The notes beneath the pieces were generated by a model, which saw only the letters and a list, made by a program, of their open reading frames with translations, had not been told where the DNA came from and searched no databases. A stretch of DNA of 64,000 bases from an uncultured Gammaproteobacteria bacterium (GTDB lineage Bacteria; Pseudomonadota; Gammaproteobacteria; JACCXJ01). Shown in pieces: positions 1 to 32,430 of this stretch. The stretch is from NCBI GenBank assembly GCA_963764725.1, contig CAVXTM010000016.1, positions 277,598-341,597 of the forward strand. Direction: 5' to 3'. Position 1 is the stretch's first letter. Every line of letters starts with the position of its first letter. The position numbers and the translations under genes were made by a program.

Positions 1-739
1 GCGGCGCCGACCGCGACAAGCTCGACCCGATCCTCGACGCCTGCGTCGCCGTCTACAAGGAGCAGCTCGACGAGGACGGCCAGGTCGACTTCAAGGGCAA
101 GGCCAAGGCGTTCATCGCGCACCTACGGCTTCCTCGCCTCGATCCTGCCCTACACCAACGCCGAGTGGGAGAAGCTCTCGATCTTCCTGAACTTCCTCGA
201 TCCCGAAGCTGCCGGCGCCCGATCGAGGAGGACCTGTCGAAGGGCATCCTCGAAGCGATCGACATGGACAGCTACCGGGTCGAGAAGCAGGCGGCGGTGA
301 AGATCCAGCTCCCGGACGCGGACGCCGAGATCGAGCCGGTGCCGACGACCGGCGGCGGCCACAAGCCCGAGCCCGAGCTCGACCGGCTCTCGAACATCCT
401 CAAGACCTTCAACGACCAGTTCGGCAACATCCCGTGGACCGACGCCGACCGCGTGCACAAGCTGATCACCGAGGACATCCCGGACCGCGTCGCCGCCGAC
501 ACGGCCTACCAGAACGCCAAGCAGAACTCCGACAAGCAGAACGCCCGCATCGAGCACGACAAGGCGCTGGCGCGCGTGATGACGGCCGTGCTGAAGGACG
601 ACACGGAGCTGTTCAAGCAGTTCAGGACAACGAGTCGTTCCGGCGCTGGCTGACGGACACGGTGTTCGGGCTGACCTACGAATCATCGGGGGAAGATCCG
701 CGAGCGAGCATGCGACGCAGCGATCGGTATCTCCGGTAG
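1..739 (+). pseudogene. hsdR: Type I restriction enzyme R subunit (HsdR) C-terminal fragment, frameshifted; the 5' part lies outside the window
   Basis: Translation across three frames gives the HsdR C-terminal signature ...FKGKAKAFIAH|YGFLASILPYTNAEWEKLSIFLNFL|IPKLPAP|IEEDLSKGILEAIDMDSYRVEKQAA...ELDRLSNILKTFNDQFGNIPWTDADRVHKLI...KDDTELFKQF|VQDNESFRRWLTDTVFGLTY. At least four frame changes fall between about 118 and 625 (two single-G insertions near 200 and 221). Confidence 0.6.
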
Positions 740-946
740 ATTCACGCACAATTTCCTGAGCAGCTCTCAAGAACGACTCGAGCTTGTTGACGTGGCGAGT
801 TTACTCGCTAGAATGATGCCTTTGTGCACTGCGGCAATTATTGACTCGAATGCGCCCTACCCTACGCCCGACGCGACCGTTCTTCTCGTCGGGGCCTTGC
901 GCCAAACATCGCCACCGGTGAGCTTGGTCGTTTAGGCGCCTCAGCG

Positions 947-15015: not shown

Positions 15016-15059
15016 TTATCTTGAGATATGCTATAAAGTCTTTTTATCGGGGAACCCCC

Positions 15060-15653
15060 ATGAGCCCACGCGCAGCACAGGTACAACGCGATACGCAGGA
15101 AACCCAGATCGGCGTGACCTTGGATCTCGATGGCGCCGGTCGGTCGGATCTCGATACCGGGATCCCCTTTCTCGACCATATGCTCGATCAGGTGGCGCGG
15201 CACGGGTTGATCGACCTCAAGATCGAAGCGCGCGGCGATCTCCACATCGACGCGCACCACAGCGTCGAAGACATCGGCATCGCGATCGGTCAGGCGCTCG
15301 CGCAAGCGCTCGGCGACAAGCGCGGGATTAGGCGCTACGGCCATGCATACGTCCCGCTCGATGAGGCGCTGTCGCGGGTGGTCATCGACTGTTCGGGACG
15401 GCCCGGTCTCGAGTTTCACGTGGATTTTCCGCGTGCGCGCGTCGGGGATTTCGATGTCGATCTTTTCTACGAATTCTTCCACGGGTTCGCCAACCACGCG
15501 CGCGTAACGCTTCACATCGACACGTTTCGCGGCCGCAACGCCCATCATATTATCGAGACCGTCTTCAAAGCCTTCGGTCGCGCCTTGCGCATGGCCGTCG
15601 AGTCCGACCCGCGGCTTGAGGGCGCCGTGCCCTCGACCAAGGGCAGCCTCTGA
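15060..15653 (+). CDS. hisB: Imidazoleglycerol-phosphate dehydratase
   Basis: [18 protein letters not shown]...[21 protein letters not shown]...[10 protein letters not shown]...[14 protein letters not shown]. Confidence 0.9.
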
Positions 15654-15680
15654 GAGCTTGTGAATAAATCTACTGCGCAG
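15651..15680 (+). repeat. Boundary repeat copy TGAGAGCTTGTGAATAAATCTACTGCGCAG (contains the hisB stop)
   Basis: One of five copies of a roughly 28-nt motif (see findings). Confidence 0.6.
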
Positions 15681-15707
15681 CCCACGCCGCGCGCCGTTCA
15701 TCGCACG

Positions 15708-16358
15708 ATGCAAACCGTCGTTGTTCTCGATTACGGCATGAGCAACCTGCGCTCGGTTGCCAAGGCCATCGAGTACGTGTCGGAAGGCCGGCACCGCGTC
15801 CTCGTGAGCGGCCGCCCGGATGATCTCGTGCGCGCCGATCGCATCGTCTTCCCGGGACAAGGTGCGAGCGGCGACTGCATGGAGCATATCACGGCCATGG
15901 GGCTCGATCGCGTGCTGCGCGAGGTCCTTTCCGCGAAGCCGTTTCTCGGGATCTGCCTGGGGCTGCAATCCCTGATGGAGTGGAGTGAGGAGGGGGGCGG
16001 CACGCCGGGCCTCGGGGTATACCCGGGACAGGTCGTGCGTTTTCCGCGAGAGCTGCATGCCCCGGACAGTGAGGATATTTTAAAGGTCCCGCACATGGGG
16101 TGGAATCAGGTGTGGCCGACGGATTCTCATCATTTGTGGGCGGGTATTGCTCCGGGCGAGCGCTTTTACTTCGTCCACAGCTATTTCGTGTTGCCCAAGG
16201 AAGAGGACCTTACGGCTGCTTATACGGAGTATGGCGTGCGGTTTACCGCAGCTCTCGCGCGCGGCAATGTATTCGCGGTGCAGTTCCATCCCGAGAAAAG
16301 CCAGCAGCCGGGACTGCGCCTACTCAGAAACTTTCTGCACTGGGACGGCAGCGCTTAA
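15708..16358 (+). CDS. hisH: Imidazole glycerol phosphate synthase, glutamine amidotransferase subunit
   Basis: MQTVVVLDYGMSNLRSV...GICLGLQ...VQFHPEKS (Cys-His-Glu triad context). Confidence 0.9.
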   Translation: MQTVVVLDYGMSNLRSVAKAIEYVSEGRHRVLVSGRPDDLVRADRIVFPGQGASGDCMEHITAMGLDRVLREVLSAKPFLGICLGLQSLMEWSEEGGGTPGLGVYPGQVVRFPRELHAPDSEDILKVPHMGWNQVWPTDSHHLWAGIAPGERFYFVHSYFVLPKEEDLTAAYTEYGVRFTAALARGNVFAVQFHPEKSQQPGLRLLRNFLHWDGSA

Positions 16359-17653
16359 GCCTCCGCTTCCCTCGTCTCCCGCGCCACCGCCCGGAAGCCG
16401 ATGTCCGGACGGTAATACATCCCCTGCCATTGGATTTTTTTGATCCGGGCATAGGCGAGCGACTGGGCCTCGCTGACTGTCGCGCCTAGTGCGCACACAC
16501 ACGCCACGCGGCCGCCGGCCGTGACGATCCGTCCCTCCCTTATCGCAGTGCCGGAATGAAAGACCGTGGTGTCCGCGGGATGTTCGGCATCGAGGCCCGC
16601 GATCACATCGCCTATGCGAGGGGCGCCGGGATAGCCCGCCGCCGCGAGCACGACACCGAGGGCGGCGCGTTGATCCCAGTGCGGCTGGATTATCTTCAGA
16701 CGGCCCGCGAGCCCTGCCTCGATGATCTCGACGAGATCCGAGCGTAATCGCAATAAAATGACCTCGGCCTCCGGATCGCCTAAGCGGCAATTGTACTCAA
16801 GCACCCGCGGCGTGCCGTCGGGAGCCACCATGACACCGACATACAGGAAACCCCGATAGGGCCGGCCTTCCCGCGCCATCCCGTGTATCGTCGGCAGCAG
16901 GATTTCGCTCATTACCCGATCGCTCACCTCTTGGGTGAGCACGGGGGCAGGCGAATAAGCTCCCATGCCCCCAGTATTGGGTCCGCGGTCCCCGGCATCG
17001 CGCGCCTTGTGATCCTGTGCGCTCGCGAGAGGCACGACATCGATGCCGTCGCTTACCACGATAAAGCTCGCCTCCTCGCCTTCCAAGAACCCCTCGACGA
17101 CGATTTCCTGCCCGGCGCTGCCGAAGGCGTGGCCCGCGAGCATATCGCTGGCCGCCCGGACGGCCTCATCAGTGGATTGAGCGATAACCACGCCCTTACC
17201 CGCCGCGAGGCCGTTGGCCTTGATGACCAGCGGGAGCGCCTGGGCTCGAATATACGCGCTGGCGGCGTGGAGATCCGAAAAAGATGCGTAAGGCGCCGTG
17301 GCTACGCCGTGGCGGTCCATAAAGGACTTCGCATAGACTTTGGAGCCCTCGAGCACGGCCGCCGACCGGCTCGGACCAAAGCACCGGAGCCCCGCCTCGT
17401 CGAAGCGGTCCACGATCCCGGCCACCAGTGGCACCTCCGATCCGACCAGAGTGAGGTCAACCCGAGCGCTCCGGGCGAAGGCGAGGAGGGCCGCGAGATC
17501 GCCGGCCGGGATGGCGACGTTTTCAACCTTGTGTTCGCGCGCCGTGCCGACGTTCCCCGGCGCCACGTAGACGCGATCGACGTGTGCGGAGCTCGCCACC
17601 TTCCACGCAAGGGCGTGCTCGCGCCCTCCCCCGCCAACGATTAGAACCTTCAC
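16355..17653 (-). CDS. purD: Phosphoribosylamine--glycine ligase
   Basis: [18 protein letters not shown]... ATP-grasp. GTG start at 17651-17653, directly downstream of the purH TGA. Confidence 0.9.
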
Positions 17654-17654
17654 T

Positions 17655-19208
17655 TCATGAATGGCGGAAGTGCCGGATCCCCGTGAAGACCATGGCCATG
17701 CCGTGCTCGTCGGCGGCACCGATCACTTCAGTGTCGCGGATGGAACCGCCGGGCTGGATCACTGCGGTGACGCCGACCGCCGCGGCGGCGTCGATGCTAT
17801 CGCGAAACGGGAAGAAGGCGTCCGAGGCCATGACCGAAGCCCGGAGATCGAGGCCCGCGTCGGCGGCTTTCATGACGCCGAGGCGGGCGCTGTAGACCCG
17901 GCTCATCTGGCCGGCGCCGATACCCGCGGTCTGGCCGGCTTTGGCGTAAACGATGGCATTCGATTTGACGAACTTCACCACTCGCCAGGCAAACAGCAGA
18001 TCGGCGATTTCGGCTTCGGTCGGGCCACGCTGGGTCACGACTTTCACGTCGGCAAATTCTACCGCGGCCTCATCCCGCTCCTGCACTAAGAGGCCACCCT
18101 GCACGCGCTTGTAATCGAATGCCTTCCGAGCGTGTGCCTCCGGCTGACCGACGGTGAGCACGCGCACGTCTTGTTTGCGTTGCACTACCGGGAGGGCCTC
18201 CGGCGCGACGCCCAGCGCGGCGATCACCTCTACGAATTGGCGTGCGAGGATGGCCTCGGCGGTGTCCGCGTCAAGGATGCGGTTGAAGGCGATGATCCCG
18301 CCGAAGGCGGAGGTAGGATCGGTCGCGTAAGCGCGTTCGTAGGCCACTCGCGGCGATTCGGCGAGCGCTACCCCACACGGATTGGCGTGCTTGACGATGG
18401 CACAGGCGGGCGCGGAAAAGGAAAACACGCACTCCAAGGCCACATCGGTGTCGGCGATATTGTTGAAGGAGAGATCTTTGCCTTGCAGTTGTTTGGATGC
18501 GGCGACGCTGCCCGGCGGCGGATCGGTTTCCGCATAGAAGGCGGCGCGTTGGTGAGGGTTTTCGCCGTAACGGAGCTCTTGGCGCTTGGCATAGCACGGG
18601 CAATACAGGCGCGGGAAACCTTGGTCCGCCGCGTCCATATAAGCGGCAATCAAAGAATCGTAGCGCGCAGTATAAGCGAATGCCTTGGCCGCCAAGCGGT
18701 AGCGCGTTCCGGTGCTGATGCTGGCGTTCGCGGTCCGCATCTCTTCGATGAGCGGGGCATAATCGCCCGGGTCGACCACGACCGTGACTGCGCCATGATT
18801 CTTGGCTGCGGCGCGCACCAAGGCCGGGCCACCGACGTCGATATTCTCAGTGGCCTCGGCGAGGGTGCAATCGGCCCTCGCGACGGTGCTTTCGAACGGA
18901 TACAGGTTGACGACGACCAGATCGATGGGACCGATCCCGTGGGCCTGCATCAGCGGCTCATCGATACCTCGACGGCCGAGGATGCCGCCGTAGACCTTCG
19001 GGTGCAGGGTCTTGACGCGCCCGCCCATGATTTCGGGAAAGCCGGTATAGTCCGACACCTCGATGGCTTGCAGGGCGTGCTCCGCCAGCAACCGCGCCGT
19101 ACCTCCCGTCAACAATAGTTGCACGCCCTGCCCGGTTAAAAACCGCGCGAGATCCACGAGGCCGGTCTTATCGGAGACACTCAAAAGCGCACGTCGTATA
19201 GACCGCAT
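17655..19208 (-). CDS. purH: Bifunctional AICAR transformylase / IMP cyclohydrolase
   Basis: [24 protein letters not shown]... Confidence 0.95.
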
Positions 19209-19233
19209 CGGCTGGGGCCGTTCCTGACCGTGG

Positions 19234-19548
19234 CTAGATCAAGCTGTATTTCTTGAGGCGGGTACGCAGTGTGTTGCGATTCAGGCCCAAGATTTGGGCC
19301 GCCTTCGAAAGGTTGCCCCCGGTCTGCGCCAGCACGGCCTCGAATAACGGCCGCTCGACTTCGCTAAGCACTAGCGCGTAGAGCCCGGCCGGGCTATGGC
19401 CGTTGAGATTGGCAAAGTAGATCTGCAAGGACTGCGTGATGCACTGACGAATCGGTTGATTTCTGCGCTCGACGAATACCGCTGGCCTAGAAAGCTCGTG
19501 GTCTAATATGCGAGTCATGCCGGCGACTTCTCCTACTATCATGTTCAC
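19234..19548 (-). CDS. fis: Fis family DNA-binding protein
   Basis: C-terminal [27 protein letters not shown]; about 100 aa; immediately upstream of purH, as in many gamma- and betaproteobacteria. Confidence 0.85.
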
Positions 19549-19734
19549 CCTCCCCTCTGCTACCGGCGGTTATCGTAGTGTTTCGTTCTTAAGAGATTGC
19601 GCCGGCCCCGCCGGTACCCAACGCGTGTTCTCTCGATGATTTCTACGGCGATGTGGTAGGTACCCATGATAACGGGAAACGAGTCGTGATTGAAGCCATT
19701 GACAACGGCTTTAAGCGATGTCGGGCGAAGCGCG

Positions 19735-20460
19735 TTACAGGAACTTAAACTCGAAACTCACCGGGTTTTTCCGCGGGCCTTGCACTTCCAGGACGATATG
19801 AACCGGGATCCCAGGCGGCATCGCCAGCGCCGGGTCAACATGTTTTTCGAGGTACTCCTTGGGCACAAACCGGCGAGCGGCGAGGACTTGGCCGTCCGTA
19901 TCGTACAAACCGAGCTGCAGCACCGGGTAGGGCTGGGGGAATTCCGCATAATTGGTGAAGAGGGCGTTGATCAACAGTGCGTCTGCGGCACGCGGATGGA
20001 CGCGCACATCGCGCGAGACCAGCCGGATGAGGCTCGGATCGCGGTAGTGGGGCAACTGGCAATGCCCGCAAGCCCACTCCAGCGGCGGGCGCGCTACGGG
20101 GAACAGCGCGAGCAGGCGGGACCCTTGAAACCATGCGATCTGACCCAGCAACAGCATCAAGAGTATGACGGCCGCCGCGCCCCACGCGCTCGGGCGGTGT
20201 TTCGGGACCAGCCCCTCGATGGCGGTCAGATCGAGCGCCTGGGCTAGGGCGCTGTCGGCAGCCTGAGCCACATCGGTGCGGCCCGTCGTGGCGTCCCCGG
20301 CCGCAGCGCGCGTTGGGGGTTCGCTTTGCGCGTCAACCAAAGCCTCCAAGGCATCGAAGACGCTGTGGCAAATCCCGCAGCGCACCTTGCCGTGTGCCGC
20401 CTTGAGCTCGCTCGCGGAAAGGCGAAATAGCGTACGGCATTCCGGACAGCGCGCCAGCAT
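19735..20460 (-). CDS. Zinc-ribbon plus DUF3426-type membrane protein
   Basis: N-terminal MLARCPECRTLFRLS...VRCGICHSVF (MJ0042-type zinc finger), a TM segment, then a C-terminal beta-rich domain; typical of the neighbourhood of accC/fis. Confidence 0.65.
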   Translation of the reverse strand: MLARCPECRTLFRLSASELKAAHGKVRCGICHSVFDALEALVDAQSEPPTRAAAGDATTGRTDVAQAADSALAQALDLTAIEGLVPKHRPSAWGAAAVILLMLLLGQIAWFQGSRLLALFPVARPPLEWACGHCQLPHYRDPSLIRLVSRDVRVHPRAADALLINALFTNYAEFPQPYPVLQLGLYDTDGQVLAARRFVPKEYLEKHVDPALAMPPGIPVHIVLEVQGPRKNPVSFEFKFL

Positions 20461-20535
20461 CGTTTCAGCGCCCTGGCGCGCCCGCCCCGGTCAGCCGCCT
20501 GGCAGGCACGAGGACCCACTCCTCGATCCGTTCTA

Positions 20536-20563
20536 CCGCAGTAGATTTACTCACAAGCTCTCA
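20536..20563 (-). repeat. Boundary repeat copy (minus-sense TGAGAGCTTGTGAGTAAATCTACTGCGG, contains the accC stop)
   Basis: 27/30 identical to the hisB copy. Confidence 0.6.
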
Positions 20564-21904
20564 GGTCAGTCCCAGCTTCTTTTCGAGATAATGGATATCC
20601 ATAGCGCCCGCGCGAAATCCTTCGTCATTCATCATATTGCGATGCAAGGGCAGGTTGGTCTTGATCCCGTCGATCACAATCTCAGTGAGGGCGTTAATCA
20701 TGCGCGCGAGCGCGATGCTTCGGCTCTCGCCGTGAGCGATGAGCTTGCCGATCAAGGAATCGTAGTAAGGCGGAACCGCATAGCCTTGGTAAATATGCGT
20801 ATCCAAGCGGATCCCGGGACCGCCGGGCGGATGAAATAAAGTGATCGTGCCGGGCGAGGGCATGAAGGTTTCGTGATCTTCGGCGTTGATCCGGCACTCG
20901 ATTGCATGACCACGGAGGATGATCTGGTCCTGGCGATAACTCAGAGGTTCGCCGCTCGCGATGAGGATCTGTTCTTTGACGAGATCCACCCCAGTGACCA
21001 TTTCGGTGACTGGATGCTCCACCTGAATGCGCGTGTTCATTTCGATGAAGTAAAACTGAGCATCTTGATAGAGAAACTCAAACGTGCCGGCGCCGCGGTA
21101 GCCGATTTCCTGGCAGGCTTGCACACATCGCATGCCGATAGCGTCTCTAATTTCCGCGCCGAGACCCGAGGCGGGCGCTTCTTCGATGACCTTTTGGTGG
21201 CGCCGCTGCGTCGAGCAATCGCGTTCCCCGAGGTGTATGGCGTTGCCGAGGGTGTCGGCGAGGACCTGGATCTCGATGTGGCGCGGTGTCTCAAGGTATT
21301 TTTCAAGATAGACGGAACCGTTTCCGAAAGCCGCGCGGGCCTCCCCGCTGGTAAGGGCGATGGCATTGAGCAGCGCGGCTTCGCCATGCACCACTCGCAT
21401 GCCGCGCCCTCCCCCGCCTCCCGCGGCCTTGATCATGATCGGATAACCGATCGCGCGTGCGATCCGGAGGTTCTCGTCGACATCGACGCCGAGGGGTCCG
21501 TCGGAACCAGGCACGCAGGAGACTCCTGCTTGTTTCATCACGCGGATGGCGGATACCTTGTCGCCCATCAGCCGGATCGTTTCCGGCCTCGGGCCGATGA
21601 AGATGAAACCGCTTTGCTCGACGCGCTCGGCGAAGTCGGCGTTTTCCGCGAGGAACCCATAACCCGGGTGGATGGCCACGGCGTCGGTGACCTCGGCGGC
21701 GCTGATCAAGGCTGGGCCGTTCAAATAACTTTCCGCCGAGGGCGCCGGACCGATGCACACCGACTCGTCGGCGAGACGCACCGGTTTTAGATCGCGATCC
21801 GCGGTCGAATGAACCGCAACGGTCTTGATCCCCAACTCGCGGCAGGCGCGTAAAACTCTGAGCGCGATCTCACCCCGGTTGGCTATCACGATTTTGTCAA
21901 GCAT
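20561..21904 (-). CDS. accC: Acetyl-CoA carboxylase biotin carboxylase subunit
   Basis: [33 protein letters not shown]... ATP-grasp. Confidence 0.95.
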
Positions 21905-21906
21905 GG

Positions 21907-21936
21907 CTCAGAGATTGTGAATTAATCTACTGCGCA
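21907..21936 (+). repeat. Boundary repeat copy TCAGAGATTGTGAATTAATCTACTGCGCAT abutting the accC start codon
   Basis: Same motif family. Confidence 0.55.
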
Positions 21937-22032
21937 TCCCGATCGCTGCGGCGCGTGCTCGCTCGCTCCTCGCCTATCTACCGGATATGTCTCGTCGCTT
22001 GCTCCGCGGCTCCTTGCGCTCGGGCTTGCTCG

Positions 22033-22060
22033 ATAAGATTTATTCACAACCTCTTAGTTA
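22033..22060 (-). repeat. Boundary repeat copy (minus-sense AACTAAGAGGTTGTGAATAAATCTTATC) in the accB-accC spacer
   Basis: Core GAGGTTGTGAATAAATCT; inverted relative to the 21907 copy. Confidence 0.5.
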
Positions 22061-22104
22061 ACAAATGCCGGACGAAACCGGGAGGCCTCCCTGCGCGCAG
22101 GGAT

Positions 22105-22560
22105 TCAAGTTCGTTTCAGTACGAACAGGGGCTGGTCGTATTCCACCGGTTGGCCGTTGTCGACCAGAATCGCGGCGATCGTGCCGTCGCTATCGGCTTC
22201 GATCTGATTCATTACCTTCATGGCCTCGATGATACACATAATCTCGCCCCGTTTTACCCGCTGACCCACCTCAACGAACGGTTTGCTGGTCGGAGAGGCG
22301 CCGAGATAAAAGGTGCCGACCATCGGAGCGGTGATGGAATGACCTTCAAAGTCTGGTTTCGGTTTAACATCGGTGGGAGCGACGGCATGCCCGGACGGGG
22401 CGGGGAGCTGCGGATCCGCTAGCTGTAAGAAGGTTTGACCCGCCGGCGGCGCCCGATAGCGGCTGATCCGGACCGATTCCTCTCCCTCGTGGATTTCGAG
22501 CTCGGCAATGCCGGACTCTTCCAGGAGCTCGATTAGCTTTTTTACTTTACGGATGTCCAT
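22105..22560 (-). CDS. accB: Acetyl-CoA carboxylase biotin carboxyl carrier protein
   Basis: [23 protein letters not shown]... and the C-terminal biotinyl motif [10 protein letters not shown]. Confidence 0.9.
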
Positions 22561-23029
22561 CTTTTTCCTGGTCGGGCGAACGTGTGGCATGGGCTCGCAA
22601 ACGAGCGATCGCTGCTTGCAAGGCAAGCTCATATCCCTGTGGCCCGAGACCGCTAACTATCCCGACCGCGACTCCGGAAAGGTAGGACGTGTGGCGAAAA
22701 GGCTCGCGCGCGAAGATATTGGATAGATGAACTTCGATAAACGGTATCTTGACTGCTACGAACGCATCGCGTAGCGCGATGCTCGTGTGCGTGAAAGCGC
22801 CTGGGTTGATAATGATGAAGGCGACGTTTTCCGACTGCGCCCGATGAATACGCTCCACCAGCTCGTGTTCGGCATTGCTCTGAAACGAGGACAGCATGTG
22901 TCCCGCCGACAGCGCCAGAGCTTCGAGGCAGGACTCGATCTCGGCGAGCGTCGTGGTACCGTAAATCTCCGGCTCACGTGTTCCTAATAGATTAAGGTTG
23001 GGTCCGTTAATGAGCGCCAGTTGCGACAT
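22547..23029 (-). CDS. aroQ: Type II 3-dehydroquinate dehydratase
   Basis: [24 protein letters not shown]...[19 protein letters not shown]... Confidence 0.9.
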
Positions 23030-23175
23030 ACCCGGTTCTTGAATCGCGGTTAGTTGCCGCTTGTTTCCGACACATTAGCATAAGTTAACGGCGGAAACGA
23101 GCAAACTACCCGCTATTTAGCGGCGTGGCGGAAAGCGCACGGAACCGGCGGCGAGGAATTCAATTTGATTTCGCC

Positions 23176-23275
23176 ACCACGGGGTATGAACCCCGTGGGG
23201 CGACCAAAGGGGAGAGCTGCGCCTCTCCCCTTTGGAAACCCCATGGCTAAGGATCCCGCGGCAGGACCGCGGGGA
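23176..23275. repeat. Three consecutive GC-rich stem-loops in the tlpA-aroQ intergenic region
   Basis: CCACGGGGtatgaaCCCCGTGG (23176-23198), CCAAAGGGGAGAGctgcgcCTCTCCCCTTTGG (23204-23235) and TCCCGCGGcaggacCGCGGGGA (23254-23275). Confidence 0.5.
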
Positions 23276-23282
23276 ATAAATT

Positions 23283-23831
23283 TTAGGCGGGAGCGCGGAG
23301 TAGCCGCCGGATGAGATTCTCAATTTCGTCCTTGCGGACTTGGCCGGGCTGGGTGAAGGTGATTCTCTTGTTACGATCAATGATCACCGTGTAGGGTAGC
23401 GCGCCGCTCGTATTACCGTAACTCAGAGCGACTTGGATGGCCTCCCACTCGCCGGTCAGCGTCGGGTAATTGATCCCGGCCTTGTTCGCGAATTCTTGCG
23501 TCGTGCTAAGCTCATCGATCGCGATACCCACGATCTGCAAGCCTTTGACCTTATAGTCTTCTTGAAGCGCGATGAGATCCGGGATTTCTTTTTGGCACGG
23601 AGGACACCAGGTGGCCCAAAAGTTGAGCAGCAAAACTTTTCCGTTCCACTCGCTGATGGGGCGGCTTTCGCCTCTGAAGTCCTTGAGTGAAAAATCGGGC
23701 CGCGCCTGCCCCACCAGGGTCGAAGATGAGGAGTCCGTCCGTGCGCCCAGGTGTTCGCGGAGAAGATAGCCCCCGCCTCCGGCGACGATCAGAAACAAAC
23801 AATAGAATCCAAAACGGTAAGCCGCGCTCAA
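23283..23831 (-). CDS. TlpA/DsbE-family periplasmic thiol:disulfide oxidoreductase
   Basis: WATWCPPCQKEIPDL thioredoxin motif; N-terminal membrane anchor; start overlaps the dsbD stop. Confidence 0.8.
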   Translation of the reverse strand: MSAAYRFGFYCLFLIVAGGGGYLLREHLGARTDSSSSTLVGQARPDFSLKDFRGESRPISEWNGKVLLLNFWATWCPPCQKEIPDLIALQEDYKVKGLQIVGIAIDELSTTQEFANKAGINYPTLTGEWEAIQVALSYGNTSGALPYTVIIDRNKRITFTQPGQVRKDEIENLIRRLLRAPA

Positions 23832-25678
23832 CGGCGCAACACCCGATCGAGGTGCGAGCGAAACGTCTCCGGCTCGACGAACCCGACAAGACGTTTGTTG
23901 CGAAGCTCGGTACCGTCCGGTGTGTAAAAAAGCAAGGCCGGCGGCCCGAAGACTCCGAGGCTCGCAAGCAGCTCGCGGTCCTCCTTATCATTGGCAGTCA
24001 CGTCCACTTTGATAAGCGTTAATTTGCTAAGTTGTTGACCGACAATTTGGTCGGCAAAGGTATGTTTTTCAAGCTCTTTGCACTCCACACACCAGTCCGC
24101 GTAAAGGTCTACCATCACCGGCTCGGCACTATCGCGGGCCGCGCGTAACGCCTTTTCCAAATCCGCCGCGCCTTTGACCCGTGCGAAGCTCAGCGTGAGT
24201 GGCGTCGCGGTGGATCCCTGCGCCAAGAGTGTGGCGCCCGCGAATGGACGCAACATATCGGTGGCCCCCGCGGCCGCGCCGACGATTAAGAGACCGCCGT
24301 AAGTCAAAACCAAAAACCCGGCGCCGCGCGTCAGACGGTGACCCCATGACGCGGTTTTATGGAAGAGATCGAGGGCCCCGAAGAAAATCGCCCCGGTCGT
24401 CAATAACAGCCCCCATAACAATACGGTGAACGCCGGCGGCAGCAAGCGTTCCAGCATTAAGACTGCGACTGCGAGCATCCCAAACCCGAAGAACGCCTTG
24501 ACCTGTTGCATCCAGGGCCCGGCTTTGGGCAGTAGCTGCCCGGTCGAGGTACCCACCGCTATCAGCGGCAATCCCATGCCTATGCCCAAGCAAAAGAGCG
24601 CCATCCCGCCGAGCACCGCGTCACCAGTCTTACCGATATAAATCAAGGCCCCGGCCAGAGGCGGCGCCACGCAAGGTCCGACGATCAGCGCGGAGAACAA
24701 TCCCATCGCCGCGGTTCCCTGCAAGGTTCCGCCTGCTTGCGCGTTGCTCGCCCGGGCGAGGCGCGTCTGCCAACTTGGCGGGAGTTGTAGCTCGAACCAA
24801 CCGAACATCGACAAGGCGAGGCCGACAAAGACCGCAGCAAAGAACACCAGCACCCACGGATTTTGAAACGTCGCTTGCAAGTTGTGGCCGAAGCGTCCGG
24901 CGATCACCCCCATGAGCGCGTAGGTCGCGGCCATCACCACGACGAATACGCTCGATAAAATAAATGCCTTGCGCGTAGTTACGTGCTCGCCTTGACCGGC
25001 GATGATTCCGGAGAGAATCGGGACCATGGGAAACACGCACGGTGTAAACGCGAGGAGGATCCCGAACCCCGCGAACATGGCCAGCGTCGCGAGCACGGCG
25101 CCGCTTTCGAGTTGCCGCGCCAACGCATCGTGCTCGGCAACGGGTTCGCTTGCTTCCCCGGAAGCGGCGCCGGCCGCCACGTGCGCTGGCAATCGCAGGC
25201 TGAGCGTTTTCTGCATCGGAGGGTAGCAGATCCCGTCGTCGGCGCAGCCCTGATACCTAAGGGTTAAACCGACCTCGGCCTCGCCGGGGCCTGGGCGTCT
25301 GAGCGACAGCGGGACCGTGATGGACCCGGTATACACCTCGACGGATCCGAACTCCGGATCTTCCTTGAAGTGCCCCGAGGGAAGATTAACGCGCCCGAGC
25401 CGGACGTCGCCGTCGGTCAGGTCAAATCCGAATTTATCCTTATATAGGTAATAACCGTCGGCGATGTCCCAGCGCGCGGCAAGGGTCACCGGATCTTTGA
25501 TGTCGACCGTGATCCGAAATGCTTCGTCGGGAGGTAAAAACTCCCGGCGGGCCGGTTCGCCCGCGAAACCGCGCTTAAAATCCTCGAATATATTTGCCGC
25601 CCCGCGTTGTTCGTCGGCAAACACAGGTAGCAACGTTCCAAACAACCAAACGAAGCAGACAGCGCTGACGGTCTTCAC
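23828..25678 (-). CDS. dsbD: Thiol:disulfide interchange protein DsbD
   Basis: 616 aa; signal peptide, periplasmic domain, multi-TM core with a Cys pair, and a C-terminal thioredoxin domain (WCVECK). Confidence 0.9.
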   Translation of the reverse strand: MKTVSAVCFVWLFGTLLPVFADEQRGAANIFEDFKRGFAGEPARREFLPPDEAFRITVDIKDPVTLAARWDIADGYYLYKDKFGFDLTDGDVRLGRVNLPSGHFKEDPEFGSVEVYTGSITVPLSLRRPGPGEAEVGLTLRYQGCADDGICYPPMQKTLSLRLPAHVAAGAASGEASEPVAEHDALARQLESGAVLATLAMFAGFGILLAFTPCVFPMVPILSGIIAGQGEHVTTRKAFILSSVFVVVMAATYALMGVIAGRFGHNLQATFQNPWVLVFFAAVFVGLALSMFGWFELQLPPSWQTRLARASNAQAGGTLQGTAAMGLFSALIVGPCVAPPLAGALIYIGKTGDAVLGGMALFCLGIGMGLPLIAVGTSTGQLLPKAGPWMQQVKAFFGFGMLAVAVLMLERLLPPAFTVLLWGLLLTTGAIFFGALDLFHKTASWGHRLTRGAGFLVLTYGGLLIVGAAAGATDMLRPFAGATLLAQGSTATPLTLSFARVKGAADLEKALRAARDSAEPVMVDLYADWCVECKELEKHTFADQIVGQQLSKLTLIKVDVTANDKEDRELLASLGVFGPPALLFYTPDGTELRNKRLVGFVEPETFRSHLDRVLRR

Positions 25679-26010
25679 GGGGTTGCGTTCACCATTTCGT
25701 TAATCCAGCTTAAATACGGGCTCGAGCCTCGCACTATAGGGACCGCGATGATTTCGGGGAGTTCATACGGATGTTCCGATTTTAGCAAGGATTCCACCGC
25801 CTCGTAACGCCATCGGCGGGTTTTGATCAAGAGCAGGACTTCGGCACTCGATTCGAGCTTATCGGCCCAGCGGTAAATCGAGTGCACCGCGGGAAGGATA
25901 TTGACGCAAGCGGCGGCGCGTTGTTCGACCAACCGGGTAGCTATTCGGCCCGCGACCGCGTTGTCGGGGCACGTCGATAGCACGAGGAGGTAGTCTTCGG
26001 CATCCGTCAT
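25675..26010 (-). CDS. cutA: Divalent-cation tolerance protein CutA
   Basis: [31 protein letters not shown]...; overlaps the dsbD start (cutA-dsbD operon). Confidence 0.85.
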
Positions 26011-26043
26011 CGCCGGTCCTCGTTTCGGATCAGCGGAAGTCGG

Positions 26044-26071
26044 TTGACAGTAACGGCGCGCCGCCTATAAT
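26044..26071 (+). promoter_or_regulatory. Sigma-70-type groESL promoter (TTGACA, 16-nt spacer, TATAAT)
   Basis: TTGACA at 26044-26049; TATAAT at 26066-26071. Confidence 0.6.
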
Positions 26072-26097
26072 TAGCACTCACAAGAAGCGAGTGCTAA
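26071..26097 (+). promoter_or_regulatory. CIRCE operator (HrcA binding site) TTAGCACTC-N9-GAGTGCTAA
   Basis: Perfect match to the CIRCE consensus immediately downstream of the -10 and upstream of groES. Confidence 0.85.
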
Positions 26098-26141
26098 TAC
26101 CGCTTTGTTTTTCTATCGCACATCGGAGGAGGTTAATCATC

Positions 26142-26432
26142 ATGAATATTCGTCCCTTACACGATCGCGTCATCATCCGCCGCCTAGAGGAAGATCGCAA
26201 GAGCGCCGGGGGTATCGTCATCCCGGACACGGCCGCGGAAAAACCTATGAAAGGAGAAGTCGTTGCCGCGGGTCCAGGTAAGCTCTCGGAAGACGGCAAA
26301 GTCAGACCGCTCGACGTCAAACCCGGTGATAAGGTGCTTTTCGGCAAGTATTCTGGTACCGAAGTCAAAATGAACGGCCAGGACATAGTGGTCATGCGGG
26401 AAGACGACATCATGGGCGTCATCGAAGGTTGA
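26142..26432 (+). CDS. groES: Co-chaperonin GroES
   Basis: [17 protein letters not shown]...; RBS GGAGGAGG. Confidence 0.95.
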
Positions 26433-26459
26433 ATTTAGAATCTTTAATATAAGAGGTGA

Positions 26460-28103
<1,644 letters not shown>

Positions 28104-28132
28104 TCCCGAAGGGAATCCACGCACATCACTAA

Positions 28133-28163
28133 AAACCCCGCGCAACCCGCGGGGTTTTTTTAT
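28133..28163. terminator. Bidirectional rho-independent terminator after groEL and after the convergent TPR gene
   Basis: AAAAA-CCCCGCG-caacc-CGCGGGG-TTTTTTT. Confidence 0.75.
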
Positions 28164-29878
28164 AGGCGGGAGAGATCGAGCCCTGCGCGATCGCTGGCCC
28201 AGGCCTCTGCCAGTCGTCTCTCGGCGACACGTGCTTGGTCTTTATCACCCCGCCGCTTGTAGACTTGCGTTAAGCCATAGAGCGCCCAACCGTTGTGAGG
28301 CGCCTCGCGCAGGCTCGCCCGGAATGCGTCCTCGGCGCCGGCGAGATCGCCCGAGAGCAGGAGCACGGCGCCGAGCGACTGGCGCACCGGATAGTACCAG
28401 TACGGCGGCTCCGTGTAGGAAAGCTTATCCTGAATGGCTACCGCCCGCGCGAGCTCGGTACGCGCGGACTTTAGGGCGCCTCCGGCTTGAGCGATGCGAG
28501 CGCGTAGCACGTGGCGGGCGAGTGCCAGCACGTCGCCCGCGGGGATCCCGCCGGCCGTGAGCGCGGAAAAGTCCGCGCGGGCGGCGATCGCCGCGATCGC
28601 CGCCGCCGCGCGCTCGGCGGCCTGGATATCCTTACGGGACGCATGGGCCACGCCGCGAGCGTACTGCCACATCGCCTGCACATAGGGCAGACTGGATCCG
28701 GGATCCCGCAAGGCCAACACAATCTCGGGCGCGCTGAACTGGGCGTGGGCAAAATAGGGCGCCGCTTTAATGGGCTGCACCCAGGGAATGGCCCGGGCCG
28801 CATCAGCGGTCACCACGCGCGAGAGCTTCTCAGCCGCGGCGATCGCGGTCTTGCCGTCGCCCGCCATCTGGGCCGCGGCCATGAGCGAGTGCACGTTGTG
28901 CGGATAATAGGCCTGCGGATAGATGCCCTCGGGCGCCGCCTCGGCGATATAGGCCTCATCGGCCGCTACCCCCGCCTTATTCACGGCAAGCGCGTCCAGA
29001 TAGCGGCCCATGCGGAAATAGATGTGAAAGGGCATGTGCACGAGATGGCCGGCGCCGGGCATGAGATCCGCGAGACGCGTGGCATACGGTTCCGCCCGCT
29101 CCGGCCGGTCCGAGGCCTCGACCATGTGGATATAGTAGTGGATCGCCCCCGGATGGTCAGGATGTTTGTCCAGCACCCGTTCCAGGACGGCGAGGATCTC
29201 CGCCGTTCTGCCTTTCGGCCGGCGGCCGTTCGATGCCCAGTAGTCCCAAGGCGTGAGATCCATCAGGGACTCGGCGTAGAGAATCTGGATGTCCGCGTCC
29301 TCGGGATAGCGGGCCGCCACTCGATTCATGGCCGTAGCGTAGGCGGCATCCAAGGTCGCCCGCTCGGCGTTTTCGGAATAGCGCCTGCCGAGCGCCTCGA
29401 TCAGCGCTCGTTCACGGCGCGAAGCGTAGCGGGCTTTCTTTTGCGCCTCGCGCAGGGCCGCGAGCGCAGGTTTTACTGCGGCGGAGTCCATCGGCGCGTT
29501 GATGTTGGGGCCGAGCACGAGTGCCTCACCCCAAGCGCAGAGGGCGCATTTCGGATCGAGCTTCTGCGCCATTCGAAAGGCGCGCCGCGCTTCGGTATGG
29601 TTGAACGCGTAGGTGAGCCGCAGGCCTTGATCGAAGTACTTCTGAGCGCGTGGACTCGTTGTCGTGACCTTGTAGCTCAGCGTGCCGAGGTTGTCCCAAA
29701 GCGGCGGCGCGCTCTCGACGAAGGATTCAGACGGGCGGCGGACTTGATCCGCGAAGCCCCCGACCTCGCCCCGGACCGCGTGGTCGTGCCCAGGGGCTGC
29801 TTGAGCACTGGCCGGCAGTACCGCCGCGATTCCAACGAATATCATCGAGCAAACCGCAACCATATGCATGCAAAACAT
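28160..29878 (-). CDS. Periplasmic tetratricopeptide-repeat protein
   Basis: Signal peptide MFCMHMVAVCSMIFVGIAAVLPASAQA followed by multiple TPR-like helical repeats. The start is taken at the ATG 6 nt after GGAGGA. Confidence 0.7.
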   Translation of the reverse strand: MFCMHMVAVCSMIFVGIAAVLPASAQAAPGHDHAVRGEVGGFADQVRRPSESFVESAPPLWDNLGTLSYKVTTTSPRAQKYFDQGLRLTYAFNHTEARRAFRMAQKLDPKCALCAWGEALVLGPNINAPMDSAAVKPALAALREAQKKARYASRRERALIEALGRRYSENAERATLDAAYATAMNRVAARYPEDADIQILYAESLMDLTPWDYWASNGRRPKGRTAEILAVLERVLDKHPDHPGAIHYYIHMVEASDRPERAEPYATRLADLMPGAGHLVHMPFHIYFRMGRYLDALAVNKAGVAADEAYIAEAAPEGIYPQAYYPHNVHSLMAAAQMAGDGKTAIAAAEKLSRVVTADAARAIPWVQPIKAAPYFAHAQFSAPEIVLALRDPGSSLPYVQAMWQYARGVAHASRKDIQAAERAAAAIAAIAARADFSALTAGGIPAGDVLALARHVLRARIAQAGGALKSARTELARAVAIQDKLSYTEPPYWYYPVRQSLGAVLLLSGDLAGAEDAFRASLREAPHNGWALYGLTQVYKRRGDKDQARVAERRLAEAWASDRAGLDLSRL

Positions 29879-30028
29879 GGTCATTCCTCCGCAACAGCTA
29901 CAGGTTCCGCGATAACAGACCGAGCGTCGCAAACCAGGGGCTGCTCTATGGACCCTACCATCCGAAAAATGGCGCCTTACCGCCATTGATATCGGGCTTT
30001 CGGAGGCGCGCACCGTGCTGGTGGTGGA

Positions 30029-31360
30029 TCAGCCACGCTCCTCCACGGGCAGGAAGGGCCTGGCCGCGGACCCTGTATAGCGCTGGCGCGGACGGCTGAT
30101 TCTCTGATCGGTATCCGCGATCATCTCCTTCCACTGCGCGACCCAGCCGACCGTGCGGGCCACGGCAAAGAGCACCGTGAACATGCTGGTCGGAAAGCCC
30201 ATAGCCTTAAGGATGATCCCGGAGTAGAAATCTACGTTAGGATACAGCTTGCGCTCCACGAAATAGTCATCCTCAAGCGCGATGCGTTCCAGTTCCATGG
30301 CGATCTCCAGCAGCGGCTCCCGGATGACGCCAAGTTCCGCGAGCACCTCGTGACAGGATTCACGCAGCACCGCTGCCCGCGGATCATAGTGCTTGTAGAC
30401 CCGATGGCCAAAGCCCATGAGCCGCAGCGCGCTGTTCTTTTCCTTGACCCGCCCGATAAACTCGGGGACGCGATCCTTGGAGCCGATTTCCTGCAACATT
30501 GTGAGCACGGCTTCATTCGCCCCGCCGTGGGCCGGGCCCCAGAGCGAGGCAATACCCGCGGCGACACAGGCAAAGGGGTTGGCACCGCTCGAGCCGGCCG
30601 TGCGCACGGTTGAGGTAGAGGCATTCTGTTCGTGATCGGCATGCAGGATAAAAATCCGGTTCATCGCGCGCGCCATGACCGGGCTGAGCTTGTACGTCTC
30701 GCACGGCACGGAGAACATCATTTGCAGGAAATTGTCGGCATACCTCAAGTCGTTGCGCGGATAAACGAACGGCTGGCCGATGGAGTATTTGTAGGCCATG
30801 GCGGCGATGGTCGGCATTTTGGCGATGAGCCGCTGCGCGGCGATCTTGCGCTGCTCAGGGTCGGTGATGTCGGTGCTGTCATGATAGAACGCGCTCAGCG
30901 CCCCCACCACGCCCACCATCACGGCCATGGGGTGAGCGTCGCGCCGAAAACCACGGTAAAAGGAAAGCACCTGTTCATTGAGCATGGTGTGATAGGTGAT
31001 GATATCCTCGAAACCGGTCTTTTGACTGGCGTTTGGCAGTTCGCCGTAAAGAAGCAGGTAGCAGACCTCGAGGAAATCACAATGCTCGGCGAGATCCTTG
31101 ATCGGGTAGCCGCGATGCAGAAGCACCCCCTGCTCGCCGTCGATGAAGGTGATCCGTGATTCGCAGCTCGCGGTCGAGGTAAACCCGGGGTCATAGGTGA
31201 AATAGCCAAGCTCGCTGTAGAGCTTACGGATATCGATGACGCTCGGGCCTAGGGTGCCGCCGAGCAAGGGCAGTTCCACCCGTCTTCCCGAAGCCTCATC
31301 GATGAGCGCGATGGTCGCGGGCCCGGAGGCCGGATCCGGTATCTCGGGTGTTTGACTCAT
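30029..31360 (-). CDS. gltA: Citrate synthase (type II)
   Basis: [10 protein letters not shown]...GFGHRVYK...DPRA...; RBS GGAGGA 8 nt upstream. Confidence 0.9.
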
Positions 31361-31393
31361 AGATAATCCTCCATTCACAACCTCTTAGTCGAC
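31361..31393 (-). repeat. Boundary repeat copy (minus-sense GTCGACTAAGAGGTTGTGAATGGAGGATTATCT) that includes the gltA RBS
   Basis: Core GAGGTTGTGAAT, with GGAGGA replacing the AAAT segment. Confidence 0.5.
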
Positions 31394-31565
31394 CTGGCTA
31401 GGGAATAGCGCGGCTTCGGTCAGCTTGTCCCAGTCTTTCCGCGCCTCCAGGTTGATGCTCAGGCCAGTGTTGTTTTGCCGACCTGACGGGGACCGATCAA
31501 GGCGACGACGGCTTGGCTAGCCAAGGCCTCTCGAACAAGTTTGGCGTTACGACGCAATAACATCC

Positions 31566-32187: not shown

Positions 32188-32214
32188 TGGGGTGCGACAA
32201 TTTGTCGCATTTTA
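32188..32214. repeat. Copy 1 of the palindromic repeat GGGGTGCGACAATTTGTCGCATTT (minus orientation); two degenerate half-site copies lie at 32144-32176
   Basis: Core 17-bp palindrome TGCGACAA-T-TTGTCGCA; the same 24-mer recurs at 41024-41047 and 41158-41180. Confidence 0.6.
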
Positions 32215-32430
32215 AAAGGCGATCGCCATTGCTATGATTGCCGGGGCTGAAGGACAGAAGATGCGAATATCGCAAAACGGAGAAGGAAAGAAAGGCCGCG
32301 CCAGAGGCGCGGCCATAAAGCGCGGTGGTGAGAGACGAGTGTCGAGGCCGCTAAACCTGAAAGACGCTCGAATCTTCCACTACGTGCCGGAGCCCTACGG
32401 CCTTGCTAGGTCGCTGGCCCTATGCACAGC

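What the first reader, a model, noticed from the sequence alone, without database searches (positions are those of the whole stretch)
15651..31393. Five copies of a roughly 28-nt motif sit exactly on stop or start codons of hisB/hisH, accB/accC and gltA
The motif TGAGAGCTTGTGA(A/G)TAAATCTACTGCG follows the hisB TGA (15651) and the accC TGA (20563, minus sense) almost identically, 27/30. A variant abuts the accC ATG in the opposite orientation (21907-21936). Two further variants with the core GAGGTTGTGAAT lie in the accB-accC spacer (22033-22060) and across the gltA RBS (31361-31393). Because the copies are embedded in stop codons, RBSs and start contexts of core metabolic genes, they look like a host regulatory or RNA-level signal, such as a binding site for an RNA-binding protein or sRNA, or a REP-like element exapted into translation signals. 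This is unlikely to be chance similarity. I know of no described element with this sequence.
Basis: seen in the sequence. Interest (0 to 1): 0.7.

Follow-up and report, generated by a model that had tools for sequence, protein, structure and literature searches.

The report
Decayed mobile repeats at gene ends
The repeated motif is the terminal inverted repeat of a small non-autonomous transposon (a MITE) that inserts into CTGAG/CTCAG and duplicates TGA/TCA, so its copies and decayed stumps often sit exactly on stop codons; this is ordinary selfish DNA, not a host regulatory signal.

Summary
The motif occurs at all five stated sites, far above chance, and there is a sixth copy at 700-756.

It is the tip of a ~141-144-bp fold-back MITE. 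The terminal repeats are GAGNTTGTGAATAAATCT / GAGNTTGTGAAGAAATCG. The target is C-T-S-A-G and the central TSA is duplicated. The family is widespread in beta- and gammaproteobacterial MAGs.

The window holds one intact, lineage-specific insertion (21911-22053, 3 nt upstream of the accC ATG) and four decayed relics: hisB stop, accC stop, gltA upstream and 700-756.

Genomes 93-98% identical show empty, full or truncated states at the same sites. That proves mobility and argues against a conserved host signal.

In 56 of 94 non-redundant copies the duplicated TGA is the stop codon of the abutting ORF. This follows from the target sequence plus selection against insertions inside genes.

Metagenomic elements of 1.5-1.8 kb share the same 17-18-nt tips and the same duplications. 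They encode IS1182-family transposases and are the likely mobilisers.

The B-half of some subfamilies resembles the Rfam sRNA family sX9, below its threshold.

Verdict: an apparently undescribed member of a known kind, of modest interest.

The parts
700..756 (-). Truncated MITE relic: degenerate A-end tip plus about 45 nt of W-type interior
   Evidence: 56 nt, 80% match to 21911-21966 (I1); sequence
757..759 (.). TGA flanking the 700-756 relic, within CTGAG (remnant of the target duplication)
15021..15025 (.). Empty target site (TTGAG). The orthologous site in USCg_Taylor (L114) holds a ~144-bp element
15651..15653 (+). TGA: the hisB stop codon and also the target-site duplication copy next to the element
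15654..15683 (+). 30-nt stump (A-end) of a MITE. L114 has the full 207-bp element at this site and L123 has an empty site
20536..20560 (-). ~25-nt stump (A-end) of a MITE abutting the accC stop; shared, with substitutions, by relatives at 94-98% AccC identity
20561..20563 (-). TGA (TCA on the + strand): the accC stop codon and also a target-site duplication copy. The 85% relatives have an empty TTC TGA GAG here
21908..21910 (.). TCA target-site duplication copy, 3 nt upstream of the accC ATG (21904-21902)
21911..22053 (+). Intact 143-bp MITE of the W subfamily, with the A-end at 21911 and the B-end at 22053. A lineage-specific insertion in the accB-accC spacer
22054..22056 (.). Second duplication copy, now TTA (TAA in mRNA sense; presumably mutated from TGA)
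31373..31384 (-). 12-nt terminal tip (GAGGTTGTGAAT) directly upstream of the gltA Shine-Dalgarno sequence; an old relic shared with L123
31385..31387 (.). TTA (TAA in gltA sense) flanking the tip, within C-TAA-G
54617..54621 (.). Empty target site (CTCAA). The orthologous site in L084 holds a 56-bp mini-element with an exact TCA/TCA duplication

Best explanation
The motif is the terminal inverted repeat of a non-autonomous DNA transposon, a fold-back MITE with a modal length of 141-144 bp. A DDE transposase supplied in trans cuts the element at its GAG...CTC termini and joins it into a palindromic C-T-S-A-G target with a 3-bp stagger. Repair then duplicates TSA (mostly TGA/TCA) on both sides. 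The likely mobiliser is an IS1182-family transposase, because 1.5-1.8-kb elements with identical 17-18-nt tips and the same duplications encode one. In GC-rich genomes TGA is the usual stop codon, and an insertion exactly at C-TGA-G regenerates the stop codon. Such insertions do not change the protein, so they survive, whereas insertions inside genes are purged. In two of three reading frames the terminal repeat itself supplies TGA or TAA within 15 nt, so insertions in the last few codons are also mild. The window carries one recent intact insertion (accB-accC) and four older copies eroded by internal deletion down to 12-56-nt stumps. Shown: repeat anatomy, duplications, target consensus, filled/empty/truncated polymorphism, stop-codon coincidence, fold-back covariation, and the existence of IS1182-type elements with the same tips. 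Inferred: trans-mobilisation by that transposase, and selection rather than targeting as the cause of the stop-codon excess.
For: Anatomy: 98 of 120 motif hits in other genomes have an inverted partner end, at a modal 141-144 bp. Of 94 non-redundant copies, 73 have identical 3-bp flanks: TGA 51, TCA 19, TTA 3. Target: C at -4 in 77/93 and G at +4 in 66/93. Mobility, between genomes about 93% identical: window 54617 is empty while L084 has a 56-bp element with TCA/TCA; window 15021 is empty while L114 has a 144-bp element; the hisB site is empty (L123), full at 207 bp (L114) or a 30-nt stump (window); the accB-accC site is empty in the 98% and 94% relatives; the accC-stop site is empty in the 85% relatives. 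Decay: the accC-stop relic differs at 3 of ~28 positions between window and L114, against ~3% in the flanks. Stop codons: 56/94 versus 21% background. Autonomous relatives: at least 11 elements of 1.47-1.77 kb with the same tips and matching TSA duplications; their ORF scores 364 and 348 bits on NCBIfam NF033551 IS1182 (cutoff 270) and carries DUF772 and DDE_Tnp_1. Literature: the IS1182 family is heterogeneous and some members target palindromes (PMC5678879); ISPse1 is 1653 bp with a 4-bp repeat (PMC3281130).
Against: MITE-IS similarity is limited to the 17-18-nt tips, with no interior homology. No such transposase lies in the window or in about 1 Mb of MITE-bearing genome loci. The only named close homolog is from Thermoanaerobaculia, not Proteobacteria, so the actual mobiliser in this lineage is unidentified. 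Orientation relative to the central base of the duplication is subfamily-specific: S 21/21 TGA-type, Acc 8/8 and W 5/5 TCA-type. A simple symmetric transposase model does not predict this. Among non-genic CTSAG sites the occupied ones are still enriched at stop codons (OR 3.8-6.3), so some targeting or extra selection may be involved. The two duplication copies of the window's intact element differ (TCA versus TTA).
Confidence: 0.9

Rival explanations
1. Host regulatory or RNA-level signal: the 28-nt motif is a conserved binding site for an RNA-binding protein or sRNA, or a processing/termination signal, kept at gene boundaries by selection.
For: Boundary enrichment is real. The element folds into a stable hairpin that would be part of the mRNA. 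A related repeat half is transcribed as the sRNA sX9 in Xanthomonas (PMC3300014).
Against: Orthologous junctions in genomes 93-98% identical are empty, full or truncated. Relics decay faster than their flanks. The motif is always the tip of a TIR/TSD-bounded element. There are no promoter- or terminator-like sites at the accB-accC copy. Stability shows no strand asymmetry that would point to an RNA function.
Confidence: 0.04
2. It is a MITE, but individual copies (for example the hairpin after the hisB or accC stop, or the one in the accB-accC spacer) have been co-opted as mRNA 3' stabilisers, attenuators or translational-coupling modulators, as proposed for ERIC, REP and Correia elements.
For: Elements are predominantly co-oriented with the abutting gene: A-end at the stop in 42 copies versus B-end in 14. 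The fold-back is maintained by compensating changes. The stop-site excess persists among non-genic sites. 24 of 188 element ends lie within 25 nt of an ATG that opens an ORF of at least 100 codons.
Against: The window copies at hisB, accC-stop and gltA are stumps that have lost the hairpin. The accB-accC fold is not more stable than shuffles of the whole spacer (z = -1.1). Orientation bias also holds at non-stop sites, which points to insertion rather than host selection. No expression data are available.
Confidence: 0.12
3. It is a MITE derived from, and mobilised by, the IS1031 subgroup of the IS5 family, which is known for a TNA target and an exclusive 3-bp duplication.
For: The TNA 3-bp duplication and GA-initial ends match published IS1031-group behaviour (PMC12016507; PMC1676026). 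The ISLrh IR GAACCTGTCTAGTATCT loosely resembles the tip.
Against: The full-length elements that carry the identical tips are 1.47-1.77 kb and encode IS1182-family transposases. IS5 models score only 20-34 bits against cutoffs of 110-275. No element of ~0.9 kb with these tips was found.
Confidence: 0.04
4. It is a REP/BIME-type element spread by a RAYT (Y1) transposase.
For: It is intergenic, multicopy and hairpin-forming.
Against: It has 17-18-nt terminal inverted repeats, 3-bp target duplications and a 141-144-bp unit, and it is associated with a DDE transposase. These are not REP features (REP features as I know them).
Confidence: 0.01

Closest known systems
IS1182-family insertion sequences (e.g. 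ISPse1 of Paracoccus, IS1272 of Staphylococcus)
   Same: Full-length elements with the same 17-18-nt tips and TSA duplications encode NF033551 IS1182 transposases. The size class of ~1.5-1.8 kb and the short direct repeats match ISPse1, which is 1653 bp with a 4-bp repeat (PMC3281130). A palindromic target fits reports that some family members target palindromes (PMC5678879).
   Different: The window elements have no transposase gene, are 143 bp or less, and share only the tips with the IS. IS1272 replaces stem-loops without making duplications, whereas these elements make clean 3-bp duplications.
Bacterial fold-back MITEs such as ERIC/IRU, Correia/NEMIS and RUP (comparison from my own knowledge of the literature, e.g. 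the Delihas review PMC2229807 listed)
   Same: Size of ~100-170 bp, terminal inverted repeats, short target duplications, intergenic and often co-transcribed, long imperfect hairpin, and present or absent between close relatives.
   Different: Unrelated sequence. The target is CTSAG with a TSA duplication, not TA. The hosts are environmental beta/gammaproteobacteria. The duplication very often doubles as a stop codon.
Rfam RF02228 sX9 (Xanthomonas sRNA)
   Same: The whole 76-nt model aligns from the element's apical hairpin through the B-arm (...UGCUCGCUACG...) in U and S subfamily copies: 39.5 and 36 bits, E = 6e-6 in a local search. sX9 is reported as one of the most prevalent 'sRNAs' when every instance is counted (PMC9029176), as expected for a repeat.
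   Different: The scores are below the gathering score of 44. No copy in 18 loci reaches it and the window's own intact copy gives no hit. The terminal tip differs from the sX9 3' end.
IS1031 subgroup of the IS5 family
   Same: TNA target with an exclusive 3-bp duplication, and ends starting GA(G/A) (PMC12016507, PMC1676026).
   Different: Those IS are ~0.85-1.05 kb. The elements that share these tips are 1.5-1.8 kb and score as IS1182, not IS5.

Membership tests
MITE (non-autonomous DNA transposon) | Terminal inverted repeats | tested here: met
   GAGNTTGTGAATAAATCT / GAGNTTGTGAAGAAATCG; 98 of 120 ends have a partner. In the window: 21911-21928 versus 22036-22053.
MITE (non-autonomous DNA transposon) | Target-site duplication flanking the element | tested here: met
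   Identical 3-bp flanks in 73 of 94 non-redundant copies. The single copy of the triplet is seen at empty sites.
MITE (non-autonomous DNA transposon) | Small, with no transposase ORF, and multicopy | tested here: met
   Modal length 141-144 bp. Six copies or relics in this 64-kb window.
MITE (non-autonomous DNA transposon) | Insertion polymorphism between close relatives | tested here: met
   Five sites differ between the window and genomes 93-98% identical.
MITE (non-autonomous DNA transposon) | Mobilised in trans by a transposase that recognises the same ends | not testable with these tools
   Elements with identical tips that encode a transposase exist. Actual mobilisation needs an experiment.
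IS1182-family-derived element | Autonomous elements with the same termini encode an IS1182-family transposase | tested here: met
   NF033551 at 364 and 348 bits, cutoff 270. Tips are 17-18/18 identical.
IS1182-family-derived element | Same target duplication as the autonomous elements | tested here: met
   11 of 14 full-length elements have identical TCA/TCA or TGA/TGA flanks.
IS1182-family-derived element | Sub-terminal or interior homology to the parent IS (origin by internal deletion) | tested here: not met
   blastn-short finds only the tips.
IS1182-family-derived element | Cognate IS resident in the same genome or lineage | tested here: inconclusive
   No tblastn hit in the window plus 125 genome loci, about 1 Mb. 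The close homologs are unnamed metagenomic contigs, and the one named hit is from Thermoanaerobaculia.
IS5 family, IS1031 subgroup derivative | TNA target and 3-bp duplication | tested here: met
   the family feature is taken from PMC12016507 and PMC1676026.
IS5 family, IS1031 subgroup derivative | Cognate IS of ~0.85-1.05 kb with an IS5-type transposase | tested here: not met
   Cognate elements are 1.47-1.77 kb. IS5 models score 20-34 bits against cutoffs of 110-275. The two ~0.9-kb candidates were MITE pairs around host genes.
Rfam RF02228 sX9 | Covariance-model score at or above the gathering score (44 bits) | tested here: not met
   Best scores are 39.5 and 36 bits. No copy reaches the score in 18 loci. 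The window copy gives no hit.
REP/BIME | Short (~20-40 nt) palindromic units without target duplications, linked to a RAYT transposase | tested here: not met
   141-144-bp unit with TIRs and 3-bp duplications and DDE-transposase relatives. The definition of REP is from my own knowledge.

The most novel reading that the evidence does not exclude
The element is not merely tolerated at gene ends. It homes to them: its transposase reads C-TGA-G, including the asymmetric central base, which would explain the strict subfamily-specific orientation. The maintained fold-back then acts in the transcript as a 3' hairpin or as an sRNA precursor (sX9-like). If so, a widespread MITE superfamily systematically remodels operon junctions and 3' UTRs in environmental Proteobacteria, and one of Rfam's most prevalent 'sRNA' families is really half of such a transposon.
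Probability: 0.15. Interest if true: 0.55.

Novelty: new member of a known kind. Interest (0 to 1): 0.3.

Why it matters
It explains a striking pattern with a simple mechanism. An identical 28-mer sits on the stop and start codons of core metabolic genes because of target-site choice plus purifying selection, and no unknown regulatory code is needed. On the practical side, it defines a MITE family that I could not find described, spread across uncultured methanotroph-related Gammaproteobacteria, Sulfuritalea, Accumulibacter and others. Such a family will break assemblies, inflate intergenic spacers (accB-accC goes from 48 to 200 nt) and create spurious 'conserved motifs' and 'sRNA' annotations. 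The sub-threshold link to Rfam sX9 suggests that this sRNA family should be re-examined as a transposon fragment. Two features are small open questions in transposition biology: the subfamily-specific insertion orientation on a palindromic target, and the fold-back maintained by compensating changes.

Tried and rejected
(1) My first lead, recalled from memory, was an IS1031-group (IS5) MITE. The literature confirms the TNA/3-bp behaviour, but the lead was rejected once the full-length elements with the same tips proved to be IS1182-family.

(2) BLAST of the element against PLSDB plasmids found no terminal matches and no annotated IS.

(3) A full-text search for the terminal sequence found 0 papers.

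(4) 'Orphan' ends in the genome loci, examined as possible IS ends, were all truncated MITEs or chance hits in AT-rich genomes.

(5) Two TIR pairs at 905 and 962 bp (L028, L077) turned out to be two MITEs bracketing a small host gene, not an IS.

(6) A strand-asymmetry test for an RNA-level fold found no MFE bias (45 vs 49, p = 0.22) and no link to gene orientation.

(7) A promoter/terminator scan of 20400-22200 found nothing at the elements.

(8) An Rfam gathering scan of the window found no hits.

(9) An exact-protein lookup of the window's AccC and its cluster representative found neither on record, so the source assembly itself could not be fetched.

(10) A homolog search with the transposase did not reveal copies in the MITE-bearing lineages.

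(11) The coding-mask test of 'selection only' versus 'stop-codon targeting' was sensitive to the gene-calling threshold and is left undecided.


Full report
OBSERVATION. The motif is present at all five stated positions. A 24-nt pattern allowing up to 3 mismatches finds 15654-15677(+), 20537-20560(-) and 21911-21934(+), and none of 100 shuffles gave a hit. The 13-nt core AGAGNTTGTGAAT adds 22042-22054(-) and 31373-31385(-), against 0.12 hits expected by chance. A repeat search added a sixth copy of 56 nt at 700-756, which matches the interior of the accB-accC copy and not only the motif (I1). A seventh 13-mer hit at 45204 lies inside a gene, has one mismatch and shows no further similarity, so I treat it as chance.

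ANATOMY. The two motif copies in the accB-accC spacer face each other. GAGATTGTGAATTAATCT starts at 21911, and the reverse complement of GAGGTTGTGAATAAATCT ends at 22053. They enclose 143 bp and are flanked by TCA and TTA. Every copy in the window abuts a C-T-N-A-G pentamer.

THE FAMILY. Almost all are beta- and gammaproteobacterial MAGs: Sulfuritalea, Accumulibacter, Rhodocyclales, 'Chromatiales' including USCg_Taylor, Nevskiales-like genera, Pseudogulbenkiania and Magnetococcales. A few are chance hits in AT-rich genomes. Of 120 ends, 98 have an inverted partner (consensus CGATTTCTTCACAAGCTC) at a modal distance of 141-144 bp, range 45-321 bp. Among 94 non-redundant elements the two 3-bp flanks are identical in 73: TGA 51, TCA 19, TTA 3. 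The flanking consensus is C(-4) in 77/93 and G(+4) in 66/93. The target is therefore the palindromic pentamer CTSAG, with TSA duplicated. Because the termini are G...C and the outer flanks are C...G, a 4-5-bp duplication cannot be excluded for most copies. Copies that lack the outer C or G, and the empty sites, support 3 bp.

MOBILITY. The window is 92-95% identical to USCg_Taylor scaffold_131 (L114) and to L084. It is about 93% identical to L123, whose AccC is 98% identical. Five sites differ between these genomes.
(i) Window 54617-54621 is an empty CTCAA. L084 has a 56-bp mini-element there with TCA on both sides.
(ii) Window 15021-15025 is an empty TTGAG. L114 has a ~144-bp element there.
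(iii) At the hisB stop, L123 is empty (CTC TGA GAAACAGCG), L114 has a complete 207-bp element (TGA...TAA), and the window keeps only its first 30 nt joined to the downstream flank.
(iv) At accB-accC, the relatives with 98% and 94% identical AccC have ...AAC(C)TGAGCCATG. The window has AAC TAA [143 bp] TGA GCC ATG, so this is a lineage-specific insertion 3 nt upstream of the accC start that leaves the last 6 nt before the ATG unchanged.
(v) At the accC stop, a truncated relic is shared by the 94-100% clade, and the 85% relatives have an empty TTC TGA GAG. That relic differs at 3 of ~28 positions between window and L114, against about 3% in the flanks. This looks like drift, although the numbers are small.
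The 12-nt tip upstream of gltA is shared with L123, with one substitution at the variable fourth base. It is followed directly by the gltA Shine-Dalgarno sequence.

WHY STOP CODONS. In 56 of 94 elements the duplicated triplet is the stop codon of an abutting ORF of at least 80 codons (42 at the A-end, 14 at the B-end). For arbitrary CTGAG sites in the same loci the figure is 21%. An insertion into C-TGA-G recreates the stop codon, so the protein is untouched. The A-end repeat also reads ..TTG TGA.. and ..GAA TAA.. in its other two frames. In L084, for example, the insertion merely changes an ABC-F protein tail from ...HYKPLKA* to ...HYKPLRGCE*. With a GC3-based coding mask, occupied non-genic sites are still more often stop codons than unoccupied ones (OR 3.8-6.3). 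The effect shrinks as gene calling gets more permissive, and stronger selection against promoter-side insertions could also produce it. I therefore attribute the pattern to target sequence plus purifying selection, and I leave active stop-codon targeting open.

THE LIKELY MOBILISER. I first suspected the IS1031 subgroup of IS5, which prefers TNA and makes an exclusive 3-bp repeat (PMC12016507; PMC1676026). To test this I ran a metagenome scan for target plus tip with position 22 set to A/T, which excludes both MITE interiors. It returned at least 11 inverted-repeat pairs at 1.47-1.77 kb with matching TCA/TCA or TGA/TGA flanks. Each carries one ORF of 430-480 aa. That ORF scores 364 and 348 bits on NCBIfam NF033551, 'IS1182 family transposase' (cutoff 270), and has Pfam DUF772, DDE_Tnp_1 and DDE_Tnp_1_6. 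IS5 models score far below their cutoffs. The similarity to the MITE is 17-18/18 at the tips and nothing beyond them. Published IS1182 members include ISPse1, 1653 bp with a 4-bp repeat (PMC3281130). The family is described as heterogeneous, with some members targeting palindromes (PMC5678879). No such transposase lies in the window or in the ~1 Mb of genome loci I hold. The thousands of close homologs are mostly unnamed ~1.6-kb metagenomic contigs, and the one named hit is from Thermoanaerobaculia. The family assignment of the mobiliser is therefore supported, but the actual partner in this lineage is not identified.

FOLD-BACK. The interiors fall into several subfamilies that share only the ends. 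Across all 64 aligned copies the variable fourth base co-varies between the two ends: C-G 48, G-C 7, U-A 2. Within the best-sampled subfamily (19 copies) the element is a single imperfect hairpin of 51 pairs, with 99.5% of cells paired. Five pairs show compensated double changes and are never broken. 0 of 500 shuffles reach the observed covariation, and the slid controls collapse. Stability shows no strand bias (45 vs 49, p = 0.22) and no relation to gene orientation, so I cannot tell whether the fold matters as DNA or as RNA.

KNOWN RNA FAMILIES. Nothing in the window reaches an Rfam gathering score. Intact copies of two subfamilies give full-length but sub-threshold matches of their B-half to RF02228 sX9: 39.5 and 36 bits against 44, with E = 6e-6 in a local search. 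No copy in 18 further loci reaches the threshold, and the window's intact copy gives no hit. sX9 was defined from one 75-nt Xanthomonas transcript (PMC3300014). It ranks among the most prevalent 'sRNAs' when all instances per genome are counted (PMC9029176), which fits a multicopy repeat. I regard sX9 as a probable relative, not as the family of these elements.

CONSEQUENCES IN THE WINDOW. The accB-accC spacer has grown from ~48 to 200 nt and folds with the element as a long hairpin. The MFE is -74.8 kcal/mol, which is not exceptional against shuffles of the whole spacer (z = -1.1). No promoter- or terminator-like sites coincide with the copies. The hisB, accC-stop and gltA copies have lost their partner arms and cannot form the hairpin.

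UNEXPLAINED. With the A-end on the left, subfamilies S (21/21) and M (~20/21) are flanked by TGA, whereas Acc (8/8) and W (5/5, the window's type) are flanked by TCA. This also holds at sites that are not stop codons, so it looks like an insertion-level bias on a palindromic target. I have no mechanism for it.

VERDICT. The interpretation as a host signal is not supported. The thing is an IS1182-type MITE family, apparently undescribed, together with its decayed relics.

Noticed in passing
L018:3987-4063, L021:2732-2808 (and Rfam RF02228): The Rfam 'Xanthomonas sRNA sX9' model aligns end to end with the apical hairpin plus B-arm of this MITE family, at 36-39.5 bits (gathering score 44). sX9 may be a fragment of a related fold-back transposon rather than a dedicated sRNA gene.
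   Followed up: partly
family-wide (L001-L117); window 21911-22053 and 700-756 are W type: Insertion orientation relative to the central base of the TSA duplication is subfamily-specific: S 21/21 and M ~20/21 are TGA at the A-end, while Acc 8/8 and W 5/5 are TCA. This is unexpected for a palindromic CTSAG target.
   Followed up: partly
window 23158-23283: A ~125-nt window-specific insertion relative to L123, made of three GC-rich hairpins (e.g. AAAGGGGAGAGCTGCGCCTCTCCCCTTT). It is a different repeat family from the one studied.
   Followed up: no
window 28161-30026: A 1.87-kb segment absent from L123, lying between the groEL terminator and the gltA stop. It encodes a 617-aa ORF (28160-30013, minus strand) whose only family hits are C-terminal TPR repeats.
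   Followed up: partly
window 32189-32221, 41015-41047, 41160-41195: Three copies of a ~33-nt repeat containing the near-perfect palindrome TGCGACAA(A/T)TTGTCGCA. It could be an operator or another repeat.
   Followed up: no
window 31388-31400 vs L123: Synteny with the 98% relative ends about 12 nt beyond the gltA tip relic. Upstream of gltA the two genomes carry unrelated sequence, so there is a rearrangement breakpoint next to the relic.
   Followed up: no
L028:6934-7838, L077:1119-2080: Pairs of MITEs in the same orientation bracket a single small host gene (an AlgH/YqgE-like ORF in L028), with TGA outside both. These are potential composite, mobilisable units.
   Followed up: partly
L107:580-870: Two elements lie in direct tandem and share a single TCA between them (...CACAAGCTC TCA GAGCTTGTG...).
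   Followed up: no
L105 (Ca. Obscuribacter phosphatis MAG); L064/L096/L116 (Acidobacteriota MAG): Copies occur in MAGs assigned outside Proteobacteria. The Obscuribacter copy is of the Accumulibacter subfamily, which suggests bin contamination or recent horizontal transfer. The Acidobacteriota copies form their own subfamily of 160-185 bp.
   Followed up: no
P0004 (AccC homolog): One close AccC homolog is 591 aa instead of 447. It may be a read-through or fusion at the stop-codon insertion site.
   Followed up: no
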